NCBI GenBank assembly: GCA_951406725.2
Contig: OX597816.1
Location: 52,452,001 to 52,516,000 of the forward strand
From: Octopus vulgaris
Lineage: Eukaryota
Direction: 5' to 3'
Length of the DNA stretch: 64,000 nt
Below, piece by piece: positions 3,560 through 52,394 of this stretch. Position 1 is the first letter of the stretch, and every line of letters begins with the position of its first letter. The position numbers were made by a program, and so were the translations under genes. The notes below the pieces were generated by a model. It worked only from the letters and a program-made list of their open reading frames with translations, ran no database searches and was not told the origin of the DNA.

Positions 3560-3678
3560 ATTTACGCCCATATCACTTTGAAAACACCGGTTCTCGTCTG
3601 ATCACCAAAGTTAAGCAAAGTCGAGCCTAGTTAGTACTTAGATGGGTGACTGCTTGGGAAACCTAGGTGCTGCAAACG
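3560..3678 (+). pseudogene. 5S rRNA copy, probably a pseudogene
   Basis: 119 nt colinear with metazoan 5S rRNA, with box A (agttaagc) and box C (gatgggtgactgc). Terminal helix I has three mismatches, the copy is solitary and the T-run terminator is weak. Confidence 0.85.
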
Positions 3679-34680: not shown

Positions 34681-35623
34681 TATATATATTATATTAAATT
34701 AGAGATAAAATATGATGCATAACAGGCACCCATACTGGTGGCACATAAGAGATAAATATATATATATATATGTTTTTCAATATCATCACCATCGTCATCA
34801 TTTAGCGTCTGGTTCCCATGCTGGCATGGGTTAGGCAGTTTGACTGGAGTTTGTAAGCCAAAGAGTCACACCAGGCTCCAGTTATCTGTTTTAGCCTGGT
34901 TTCTGTGGTTGGATGCTCTTCCTAATGCCAACCACTCCATAGAGTGTACTGAGTCTCTTTTACATATCACTGACAAGTGTGCCTCTTATATGCCACCAGT
35001 ATGGGTGCCTGTTATGCATCATATTTCTTTATTGCCCACAAGGGGCTAAACATAGAGGGGCCCAAACAGGTAAATAGGTTTACCTGTTCCACTCCTTCAA
35101 ATTTCGTATATCATCAACATCATCATCATTGTCATCAACATTTAACATCCATTTTCCATGCTGGCATGAGTTGAATGGCCTGACAGGAAATGGCAAGGCC
35201 AGGGGCTACACAAAGATACATAATTTGTTTTGGCTTGGCTTTTATGGCTGGGTACCCTTCCTAATGCCAACCACTTTACAGAGTGAGTCAATTTGTTCTT
35301 TATAATAAATTTGACTCAACTTAGAATGGCATCACATCACAAATAAATGCACAGTTATTACTTGTGAAAGCACTTTGAAATAATAACAGTATTCTAACAT
35401 TTCTACTCTTTTTACTTGTTTCAGTCATTTGACTGTGGCCATGCCGGAGCATAGCCTTTAGTCAAGCAAATCGATCCCAGGACTTATTCTTTGTAAGCCT
35501 AGTACTTATTCTATCGGTCTCTTTTGCTGAACCGCTAAGTTACGAGGATGTAAACACACCAGCATCGGTTGTCAAGAGATGTTGGGGTAAAACACAAATA
35601 CACACACACACATATATATATAT

Positions 35624-35912
35624 TATTTTTAGATATAATTGAGTTACTTAAATGCACTTGTGTTATTCGCTTCGGCTGTTTCCATAAACGCATGTGAGTA
35701 CCTTAATTATATTCTCTCATAAGCTCAACTGATGAGGAACGAATCCTTATGTGGTTAATTCCGAAATTGATTCAATATTGAGGTAACGAAATTTAAACGT
35801 TCCAATGGTTAGTTGCCCGAATTTCAGTTCAATTTTCTGTAGCAAGCAGATTAAATGTGGAATATCAGTATATTGGCTTTAGAATAATCTTCTTTAGCCC
35901 TTGCTTATAAGA
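35624..35912 (+). mobile_element. ~290 bp hammerhead-bearing insertion in the (TA)n tract of a SINE (Penelope pLTR/retrozyme-like)
   Basis: Interrupts the SINE-A copy at 35404-36098 exactly in its internal microsatellite. TA repeats flank both sides. Confidence 0.65.
35724..35782 (+). ncRNA. Type I hammerhead ribozyme motif in a Penelope/retrozyme-like insert
   Basis: ctcaa-CTGATGA-ggaa(19 nt)ttcc-GAAA-ttgattcaa-TA-ttgag. Stem I is 5 bp, stem II is 4 bp, stem III is near-palindromic. Confidence 0.75.
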
Positions 35913-36940
35913 TATACATATATATATATATATACAAGGAGCTTCTTTCAGTTTCTGTCTACCAAATCCACTCACAAGGCTGTGATTGGCCCGAAGCTAT
36001 AGTAGAAGACACTTGCCCAAGGTGCCATGCAGTGGGACTGAACCCAGAACCATGTGGTTCGTTAGCAAGCTACTTACCACACAGCCACTCCTAAGCCTAT
36101 TTCTGCACATTTTCTATGCATAAAACTTCATGCAGTATTGATCAATCCAAAACTATGGGAGAAGACACTTGTACATAGTGTAATACACAAGGATCAAATC
36201 CAAATTGAATGGTTGGAAAGAAAATTTCTTTAAGTGCATTGGTGCAAAGGTAGCACAGCTACTCTTGCACCAATGTATACAAAGATTTCAAGTCATATTC
36301 AGTTTTGCTGGGTTTTTTTATTTTTAATGAATTGACTGTAGTGCTGATTTACTCAACAACAACAAGAACCTAGCATTGTTAATAATAATGACATGTAAAA
36401 ATAGATAAGGCAGGAAACAAAATAACTTGTGCAGAAATAAATTAAAATTGGTAACAAATCGAAAACTAGATGTTTATGATTGAGCTAAAATCCTATTTTG
36501 TAAAAAAAAGCAAATTAGTTAATTATATCAGAGAGTGATACACTATGCAACTATATAAACATTCTCAAAAATCTTAAAAGATTTTATTCGATTTACTTTC
36601 TAACATTGCAATGAAAGAAAAAGAAAGATTTTGATTGAAATAACAAAAACTTTTATTAGAATAATATTTCTTAAAAAATGAAAAAAATATTCTAAAGTAT
36701 CGCTGGTGTTTACATACTCCTTAGTATTGGAACTTTAAGCAGTCACAGAGAGGAAGGAATCAAGATTTTTACAGACAAAATATTAAAGAAATTATTCAAT
36801 GTACAACGGGCTTAACTGCAAGAGTTTAAGTCAAACAAACTTCAGCACTTGAGCAAGGACTCATAAGATCTATTTTCTTTTATTTTTCCATTTTTTGCAA
36901 GACAAGTGGTACTTCATCTGACAGACAAGAGAAAGCAAAA

Positions 36941-39984: not shown

Positions 39985-40762
39985 CTATTACTCACGAGGG
40001 GATAAATATAGAGGAGACAAACAAGGACAGACAAACGGATTAAGTCGATTACATCAACCCCCAGTGCGTAACTGGTACTTAATTTATCGACAACGAAAGG
40101 ATGAAAGGCAAAGTCGACCTCGGCAGAATTTGAACTCAGAAAGTAACGGCAGACGAAATACCTATTCCTTTACTACCCACAAGGGGCTAAACACAGAGGG
40201 GACAAACAAGGACAGACAAACGGGTTAAGTCGATTACATCGACCCAGTGCGTAACTGGTACTTAATTTATCGACCCCGAAATGATGAAAGGCAAAGTCAA
40301 CCTCGGCGGAATTTGAACTCAGAATGTAACAGCTGACGAAATACCTATTTCTTTACTACCCACAAGGGGCTAAACACAGAGGGGACAAACAAGGACAGAC
40401 AAACGGGTTAAGTCGATTACATCGACCCAGTGCGTAACTGGTACTTAATTTATCGACCCCGAAATGATGAAAGGCAAAGTCAACCTCGGCGGAATTTGAA
40501 CTCAGAATGTAACAGCTGACGAAATACCTATTTCTTTACTACCCACAAGGGGCTAAACACAGAGGGGACAAACAAGGACAGACAAACGGATTAAGTCGAT
40601 TACATCGACTCCAGTGTGTAACTGGTACTTAATTTATCGATCCCGAAATGATGAAAGGCGAAGTCGACCTCGGCAGAATTTGAACTCAGAGCATAACAGC
40701 AGACAAAATACGGCTACGCATTTTGCCCAGAGTGCTAACGATTCTGCCAACTCGCCACCTTT
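39985..40762 (-). repeat. Tandem array of SINE family C (4 units, 183-bp period, single head)
   Basis: Junction cgaaatacctatt recurs with cctatt at 40161, 40344 and 40527. Confidence 0.9.
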
Positions 40763-46080: not shown

Positions 46081-48150
<2,070 letters not shown>

Positions 48151-52169: not shown

Positions 52170-52360
52170 ATGGTATGATAGTTCGGTAACCACTACACAC
52201 ATTTTTTTCTCTCCTTGTTTCTTTCTGTGTTCCTTTCTGTGGAAGAGCGTAGGCTCGAAACATTAAAAACTTTTTCAATTCTCAAGCATTATACTAATAC
52301 ATCTGTTTGTTTTCTACACCAGCTGTCTTTGTCTTTTGTTTTTTTCGTGAATTCTCCCCA
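52170..52360 (+). mobile_element. Penelope-like terminal repeat, family P copy C
   Basis: Same family, nested at the microsatellite of a decayed SINE-A (51950-52530). Confidence 0.65.
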
Positions 52361-52361
52361 C

Positions 52362-52394
<33 letters not shown>

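What the first reader, a model, noticed from the sequence alone, without database searches (positions are those of the whole stretch)
35624..35912. ~290 bp hammerhead-carrying element inserted in the (TA)n tract of a SINE
Seen: a non-coding insert splits a SINE-A copy exactly at its internal microsatellite. It carries ctcaa-CUGAUGA-ggaa..uucc-GAAA-uugauucaa-UA-uugag, with an intact core, G10.1-C11.1 and a near-palindromic stem III. Established: Penelope pLTRs and non-LTR retrozymes (a few hundred nt) carry type I hammerheads, often with short palindromic stem III that works as a dimer, and some PLE clades target (TA)n. Inference: this may be a retrozyme or PLE family that uses the abundant SINE microsatellites as landing pads and could produce circular RNA.
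Basis: partly seen in the sequence, partly recalled or inferred. Interest (0 to 1): 0.75.

Follow-up and report, generated by a model that had tools for sequence, protein, structure and literature searches.

The report
Truncated hammerhead retrozyme in TA repeat
This insert is a cut-short copy of a many-copy, non-coding repeat of about 490 bases that carries a predicted self-cutting 'hammerhead' RNA, lands in TA repeats whether or not they lie in a SINE, and has the two-ended insertion pattern of Penelope-like jumping genes, which likely copy it; such repeats (retrozymes) are a known kind.

Summary
A 293-bp insert (35623-35915) splits a SINE at its TA tract and carries an intact type I hammerhead. 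It is not a 290-nt element but a 5'-truncated piece of a 471-501-nt non-coding tandem unit. The family has at least 408 exact motif copies; the wider lineage has 3,356 hammerhead matches against 48 control. Stems I-III covary across subfamilies. Copies end at two fixed sites about 100 nt apart, followed by (TA)n. In head-to-head insertions one arm ends at each site (25 A/B, 0 A/A, 0 B/B among 36). Two coding Penelope-like (PLE) families here show the same rule, which points to PLE enzymes as the copier. SINEs are not preferred: 12 of 84 insertions versus 13-19% of background TA tracts. No homologous coding partner was found. Cleavage and circles are untested. This copy has one ribozyme, so it cannot release a 290-nt circle. 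Verdict: new member of the known animal non-LTR retrozymes. The scan noted this system before, on other DNA of this genome and in another genome.

The parts
35936..36093 (-). Host SINE, 5' half (head with A-box-like 36087-36077 and B-box-like 36044-36034 motifs)
   Evidence: blastn to other window copies; minus-strand sequence; box consensus recalled, not from a call
35401..35592 (-). Host SINE, 3' half
   Evidence: 19 and 23 inner half-ends counted in the window
35593..35622 (.). Left part of the SINE's CA/TA microsatellite; 35610-35622 is a 13-bp TSD-like stretch
35623..35915 (+). 5'-truncated retrozyme copy: positions about 93-385 of the 486-nt unit, ending at fixed end A; lacks the A-to-B tail and the about 90 nt after it
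35694..35700 (+). GTRAGTA motif (looks like a 5' splice site), near-invariant in the family, about 30 nt before the core; role unknown
   Evidence: no spliced joint listed in contigs
35717..35789 (+). Type I hammerhead including distal stem I; this copy has a G>A change at 35719 in the distal helix relative to most relatives
35729..35735 (+). Core C3-A9 (CUGAUGA)
35736..35762 (+). Stem II: 4 bp, 2x2 internal loop, 4-5 bp, loop; G10.1-C11.1 in this copy
35763..35777 (+). GAAA, palindromic stem III (35766-35776) and H17 = A; predicted cut after 35777
   Evidence: 4-bp hairpin +1.8 kcal/mol, self-duplex -6.7 kcal/mol
35900..35915 (+). Fixed 3' end A (inferred reverse-transcription start site)
   Evidence: 60 of 120 outer 3' ends fall here
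35916..35935 (.). Right part of the microsatellite; 35916-35928 repeats 35610-35622

Best explanation
The insert is a 5'-truncated copy of a non-coding, roughly 490-nt tandem repeat with a conserved type I hammerhead motif (a non-LTR retrozyme), and it was likely written into a TA tract by the reverse transcriptase-endonuclease of a Penelope-like element (PLE). Shown: unit size, no coding frame, conserved and covarying hammerhead fold, variable 5' ends, two fixed 3' ends (A and B, about 100 nt apart) followed by (TA)n, and the one-A-one-B rule in inverted insertions. Inferred: (1) tandem or more-than-unit loci are transcribed; (2) their hammerheads cut, probably as dimers through the stem III palindrome, and the monomer is likely ligated into a circle, as shown for coral, mussel and axolotl retrozymes; (3) a PLE protein binds the A-B region, cuts both strands of a (TA)n tract and starts cDNA at A on one strand and at B on the other; (4) the reverse transcriptase reads through the ribozyme site, giving sub-unit to 2.6-unit inserts. 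The window copy is an A-primed product that stopped after 293 nt. It landed in a SINE tract by chance and is probably a dead end: it could at most cut a read-through transcript once.
For: Family size: 1,107 candidates; 408 exact matches, control 0; 3,356 versus 48 control. Unit: 12 natural ribozyme-to-ribozyme monomers of 471-501 nt, GC 0.33-0.36, circular MFE z -2.3 to -7.3 with 12 shuffles each; six-frame translation is full of stops. Ribozyme: C3, A6, G8, A9 invariant and G5 90 of 91 while N7 varies (A63/T20/C8/G2); G12-A15.1, U16.1 and H17 invariant in 34-36 arms from loci not chosen by that motif; 93% of cells paired, 12 of 21 pairs with two-sided changes, slid controls 32-46%. Ends: of 120 outer 3' ends 60 A, 44 B, 16 other, followed by TA of at least 8 nt in 52, 40 and 6. 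Inverted insertions: 25 A/B, 0 A/A, 0 B/B, 11 with an irregular end, of 36 (0.5^25 = 3e-8); in further subfamilies 10 A/B, 1 A/A, 1 irregular of 12. Coding PLEs here show the same rule: 8 of 8 Hydra-type and 7 of 7 for a 1,311-aa family, read by eye. The tail is a PLE signature that marks two RT start sites (PMC11167929; PMC8557442). Tandem units within one insertion belong to the same subfamily (69 differences in 3,414 sites, 19 arrays, 3 recurring). No TA-flanked copy starts at the cut site (0 of 5 arms).
Against: No coding PLE with a homologous terminal repeat was found among five families sampled (nhmmer, 548 kb, best non-family E 0.66), so the copier is inferred from the footprint only. 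The tail (about 100 nt) is longer than the 30-40 bp in print and than the about 56 and 71 nt of the two local PLE families. Position 10.1-11.1 is unpaired in 28 of 50 aligned rows and one subfamily has U4C (13 of 90), so activity may be low; 8 of 9 Xenopus retrozyme dimers did not cleave in vitro (10.64898/2026.07.22.740005). In the anole PLE, ribozyme cleavage was not needed for insertion, so uncut linear multimers could be the template. One array (L009) has units 6.6% apart. One A/A exception (L257). The covariation reflects a few subfamily-level events, and the shuffle control does not correct for relatedness.
Confidence: 0.8

Rival explanations
1. Non-autonomous PLE derivative copied from uncut linear tandem transcripts; the hammerhead is weak or has another job, and circles play no part.
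For: PLE ribozymes cut slowly (PMC4209133). Uncut RNA is the main substrate in vitro (PMC11167929). Frequent A-C or C-C at 10.1-11.1. No 5' ends at the cut site fits this as well as circles.
Against: 5' truncation shortens linear templates each round, yet more-than-unit inserts occur in many subfamilies (23 of 125 arms over 500 nt) with same-subfamily units, which needs a re-multimerising step. The core stays conserved while N7 and the stems drift. Both points are inference.
Confidence: 0.35
2. The copies are broken-off terminal repeats (pLTRs) of a coding PLE that was not sampled or is extinct, not an independent retrozyme.
For: Most PLE hammerheads in animal genomes are single motifs from truncated PLEs (PMC4209133). 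The tail and inversion structure are PLE features. Only 140 loci were read out of more than 3,000.
Against: The sequence after end B runs straight into the next unit in 12 natural monomers. tblastn of three local PLE proteins over 140 loci finds no ORF continuous with the unit. The unit size is kept across subfamilies only 67-75% identical.
Confidence: 0.1
3. The element specifically targets this SINE's internal microsatellite.
For: 5 of 84 insertions split the SINE with both halves present.
Against: SINE adjacency 14% versus 13-19% of background TA tracts, p 0.41-0.84.
Confidence: 0.04
4. Chance hammerhead-like motif in AT-rich DNA.
For: Rfam finds no hammerhead; local fold z about -0.4.
Against: 0 strict matches in 300 shuffles; 3,356 versus 48 genome matches; covariation.
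Confidence: 0.01

Closest known systems
Metazoan non-LTR retrozymes (Cervera and de la Pena 2020, PMC7229834; parts 2-4 of 6 read; supplement not readable)
   Same: Non-coding, low-GC short tandem units with one type I hammerhead each; predicted self-paired monomer; coexist with coding PLEs, which the paper proposes as the mobiliser.
   Different: Unit 471-501 nt versus 150-450 bp; stem II long with an internal loop; stem III an 11-12-nt palindrome rather than 1-2 bp; mostly dispersed sub-unit to 1.5-unit copies, not long arrays. The parts read do not report fixed A/B ends or TA targeting. Octopus has 0 occurrences in the main text.
[quoted passage not shown]
   Same: Retrozymes as PLE-dependent non-autonomous elements; family lengths 51-972 bp cover this unit.
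   Different: Their link is co-occurrence and pLTR homology in Xenopus; here the link is the insertion footprint and no homologous pLTR was found. No mollusc among their 35 species.
PLE pseudo-LTR hammerheads (PMC4209133, parts 1-2 of 4 and 2 of 3 supplement files searched) and the Poseidon PLE of the anole (PMC11167929, parts 1-2 of 4)
   Same: Type I, long helix II, palindromic helix III, variable base after A9, opposite-strand pairs 100-700 bp apart; two RT start sites downstream of the ribozyme that define a tail; AT-rich targets; both strands cut and extended.
   Different: No ORF; tail about 100 nt rather than 30-40 bp. In vitro the anole enzyme showed no strand difference in start site, whereas inverted inserts here use one site per arm.
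Hydra-clade and other (TA)n-targeting PLEs (PMC8557442; passages, section 11 and supplement hits read)
   Same: (TA)n preference, partial tandems, inverted 5'-truncated arms, tail at one end only; a family with the Hydra motifs RWK, DKT and CxCX5C is abundant in this genome.
   Different: No sequence homology between its terminal repeat and the retrozyme; candidate helper only.

Membership tests
Metazoan non-LTR retrozyme | Type I hammerhead in every unit | tested here: met
   Core, stems and covariation; position 10.1-11.1 often unpaired
Metazoan non-LTR retrozyme | Short head-to-tail repeats, a few hundred bp, dimers or more | tested here: met
   12 ribozyme-to-ribozyme monomers of 471-501 nt; met by the family, not by the sub-unit window copy
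Metazoan non-LTR retrozyme | No protein coding, GC below 50% | tested here: met
Metazoan non-LTR retrozyme | No LTR, primer-binding site or polypurine tract | tested here: inconclusive
   No LTR-type layout in 85 insertions; PBS and PPT were not searched for
Metazoan non-LTR retrozyme | Highly self-paired monomer | tested here: met
   Predicted only: 61-68% paired, z -2.3 to -7.3 in 12 of 12
Metazoan non-LTR retrozyme | Target-site duplication larger than 4 bp, when present | tested here: inconclusive
   13-bp repeat around the window copy but inside a microsatellite
Metazoan non-LTR retrozyme | Self-cleavage in vitro | not testable with these tools
   none
Metazoan non-LTR retrozyme | Expressed as linear and circular monomer RNA | not testable with these tools
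   Only contigs of runs whose RNA status is a guess
Autonomous PLE (pLTR of a coding element) | RT plus GIY-YIG ORF continuous with the repeat | tested here: not met
   None continuous in 140 loci
PLE-type integration | 5' truncation, partial tandems, inverted 5' arm, tail at one end only | tested here: met
PLE-type integration | Terminal-repeat homology to a coding PLE | tested here: not met
   Five PLE families sampled, no significant hit; other families may exist

The most novel reading that the evidence does not exclude
A long-lived lineage of more than 3,000 ribozyme-bearing RNA circles has diversified in this genome with no surviving coding parent, keeping its own structure by compensatory change. 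It borrows PLE enzymes in trans, which prime the two target strands at two fixed sites, one per strand, on one circular template. The insertion scars would then be genomic evidence for the proposed but unshown PLE-driven rolling-circle route of animal retrozymes.
Probability: 0.3. Interest if true: 0.6.

Novelty: new member of a known kind. Interest (0 to 1): 0.36.

Why it matters
That PLEs mobilise animal retrozymes is proposed in print from co-occurrence and terminal-repeat homology. Here a non-coding retrozyme carries the PLE-specific tail and inversion footprint, which ties it to that enzyme class. It also gives a concrete test substrate: two mapped start sites, a 490-nt unit, natural variants at the ribozyme's 10.1 and U4 positions, and three intact candidate helper ORFs in the same genome. 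The window copy itself is an ordinary truncated insertion, and the SINE association is incidental.

Tried and rejected
Rfam, gathering and E-value modes: no hammerhead family hit. RNA evidence: no RNA holder listed; runs are contigs with guessed RNA status. Contigs cover the unit but show no ends, strand, level or circles, and no GT-AG joint over the ribozyme was listed; no evidence either way. Partner search: four protein searches sampled five PLE families (ORFs of 1,181, 727 and 1,311 aa plus two decayed families); none is homologous to the unit. Clade names other than Hydra for these families are my recall. A resemblance to the 1,311-aa family (a GTAAGT before the ribozyme; one 8-mer 45 nt before end A) was dropped: the GTAAGT is absent from an older copy and nhmmer gives E 11. 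Whether the two arms of an inversion come from one RNA could not be resolved: within-insertion identity (median 97.5%) equals best other-locus identity (97.8%), so only 'same subfamily' is shown. 5' ends are denser at unit 82-108 (18 of 125), but L001-L030 were chosen for matching from there; not claimed. The descriptor was faulty (it missed the window motif) and was replaced. Rows dropped before counts: L018 (duplicate of L009), 8 family-2 loci and arms under 76% identity. L031-L090 were chosen by a motif covering the 3' half of the ribozyme, so that half was scored on L001-L030 only. Lunse et al. 2016 (PLE hammerhead dimers) was not held; I saw it only as cited in review passages (PMC6765202). 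U4C and 10.1-11.1 tolerance come from passages of PMC3088659. Not-in-print searches: (listings only) found no cephalopod retrozyme paper; the unread supplements of PMC7229834 and of the 2026 preprint could list one. A look-up of earlier notes by sequence found nothing.

Full report
Observation. The stretch is as described. A 293-bp insert (35623-35915) lies between the two halves of a SINE whose uninterrupted copies in the window are joined by a short CA/TA tract. The SINE reads on the minus strand and the insert on the plus strand. The insert holds a type I hammerhead: stem I 35724-35728/35778-35782, core 35729-35735, stem II 35736-35762, GAAA 35763-35766, an 11-nt palindromic stem III and an AUA triplet with the predicted cut after 35777. 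A strict descriptor finds this one site and none in 300 shuffled windows. Rfam has no hit. Thirteen bases are repeated on both flanks, which may be a target duplication but lies within a microsatellite.

What it belongs to. The genome (2.8 Gb, about 30 large contigs; probably an octopus, an inference) gives 1,107 DNA candidates, 408 exact matches to a 20-base ribozyme motif with 0 control matches, and 3,356 matches versus 48 control to a looser hammerhead pattern. Reading 90 loci shows that the element is a tandem unit of about 486 nt, of which the window holds positions about 93-385. Twelve natural ribozyme-to-ribozyme monomers measure 471-501 nt, are 33-36% GC and fold better than shuffles as circles (z -2.3 to -7.3, 12 shuffles each). 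The unit has no long open frame. Related subfamilies are 67-75% identical, with the same layout.

The ribozyme. Across family arms C3, A6, G8 and A9 are invariant and G5 is 90 of 91, while N7 varies freely. G12-A15.1, U16.1 and H17 are invariant in the 34-36 arms from loci not chosen by that motif; 57% of all unit positions reach 97% conservation, so this contrast is moderate. On 50 copies from three subfamily groups, 93% of cells pair and 12 of 21 pairs change on both sides, including all five of proximal stem I; slid controls give 32-46%. These reflect a few subfamily-level events. Stem III stays palindromic while its letters change. It is unstable as a hairpin (+1.8 kcal/mol) and stable as a self-duplex (-6.7), which fits dimer action as described for PLE hammerheads (PMC4209133). 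Against strong activity: the 10.1-11.1 pair is unpaired in 28 of 50 rows, the window's G10.1 is a minority state (6 of 93), 13 of 90 arms carry U4C, and the window copy's best fold is not the hammerhead.

The insertion footprint. In 85 insertions from 81 family-1 loci, 5' ends are scattered, but 104 of 120 outer 3' ends fall at two sites, A (60) and B (44), about 100 nt apart, and are followed by TA runs (52 of 60, 40 of 44). Thirty-six insertions are head-to-head inversions: 25 have one arm ending at A and the other at B, none is A/A or B/B, and 11 have an irregular end. Twelve more from other subfamilies give 10 A/B, 1 A/A and 1 irregular. This is the PLE 'tail at one end only' (PMC8557442), which in the anole PLE marks two reverse-transcription start sites (PMC11167929). 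Two coding PLE families in this genome obey the same rule (8 of 8 and 7 of 7, read by eye), with tails of about 71 and 56 nt. The first has the Hydra-clade motifs.

The SINE is incidental. Twelve of 84 insertions face a SINE half, against 47 of 250, 32 of 183 and 17 of 134 background TA tracts at three length cut-offs (p 0.41-0.84). The SINE is simply dense, about 20 copies in this 64-kb window.

The helper is not identified. Five PLE families were sampled. None has a terminal repeat homologous to the unit by blastn or nhmmer, and no PLE ORF is continuous with the unit in 140 loci. One locus (L164) joins a retrozyme copy directly to the 3' UTR of a decayed PLE; this may be a template switch or an insertion with a deletion.

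Circle or linear template. Inserts often run through the ribozyme site and exceed one unit (23 of 125 arms over 500 nt), and none of 5 TA-flanked arms truncated near the ribozyme starts at the cut site. So the template was uncut or re-ligated. Tandem units within an insertion are same-subfamily (69 differences in 3,414 sites; 3 recurring). This fits a monomer circle read more than once, the route proposed for animal retrozymes (PMC7229834), but does not exclude linear multimers. I put circles at a little better than even. Public runs were contigs with guessed RNA status and give no evidence either way.

Comparison and verdict. It works like, and on the testable features is a member of, the animal non-LTR retrozymes (PMC7229834; 10.64898/2026.07.22.740005); cleavage and circular RNA are untested. 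It is not the terminal repeat of any coding PLE sampled. Six literature searches listed no cephalopod retrozyme; two supplements could not be read. Earlier notes of this scan report the same system and the short-end/long-end rule on other pieces of this genome; my counts were made before I read them, and those notes are not independent support. New member of a known kind; interest 0.36.

Noticed in passing
window 3560-3678 (+): Full-length 5S rRNA match (93 bits), directly followed by what looks like a tRNA-like SINE head; gene, pseudogene or 5S-headed composite.
   Followed up: no
window 46081-48149 and 679-888, 52182-52380: A 2-kb (AT)n array containing the 3' end of the abundant 1,181-aa PLE at 46542-46807 (95-99%); older ends of the same family at 679-888 and 52182-52380.
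   Followed up: partly
L174, L175 and L091-L120: The abundant 1,181-aa PLE (15,662 candidates) has a hammerhead-like motif with U in place of A6; the 1,311-aa family (L223) has C in place of A9.
   Followed up: no
L164:685-1290: A family-3 retrozyme copy is joined directly to the pyrimidine tract of a decayed PLE 3' UTR, about where that PLE's own hammerhead would start; possible template switch between the two RNAs. Single case.
   Followed up: partly
48 non-inverted insertions: TA runs of at least 8 nt follow 39 of 48 3' ends but precede only 19 of 48 5' ends (median 25 versus 5 nt): 5'-side deletion, tract-edge insertion or TA added during priming. Unexplained.
   Followed up: partly
L141-L148 (G000:C8, about 106.79-106.96 Mb): Tandem array of about 20-kb duplicated segments, each with a 230-250-aa hydrophobic open frame and retrozyme copies; no Pfam hit. 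Possibly a receptor gene cluster (my guess).
   Followed up: partly
L241, L242, L244: A separate hammerhead family with an extra base after A9 and a long palindromic stem III, not matched by the retrozyme profile, ending in TA.
   Followed up: no
window 39989-40711: Tandem array of a 183-bp unit, 3.9 copies, 94% matches, apparently of another abundant repeat.
   Followed up: no
unit positions about 20-60 (absent from the window copy): A hairpin just after end B appears to be kept with different letters in all three subfamily groups (read by eye); covariation not counted.
   Followed up: no
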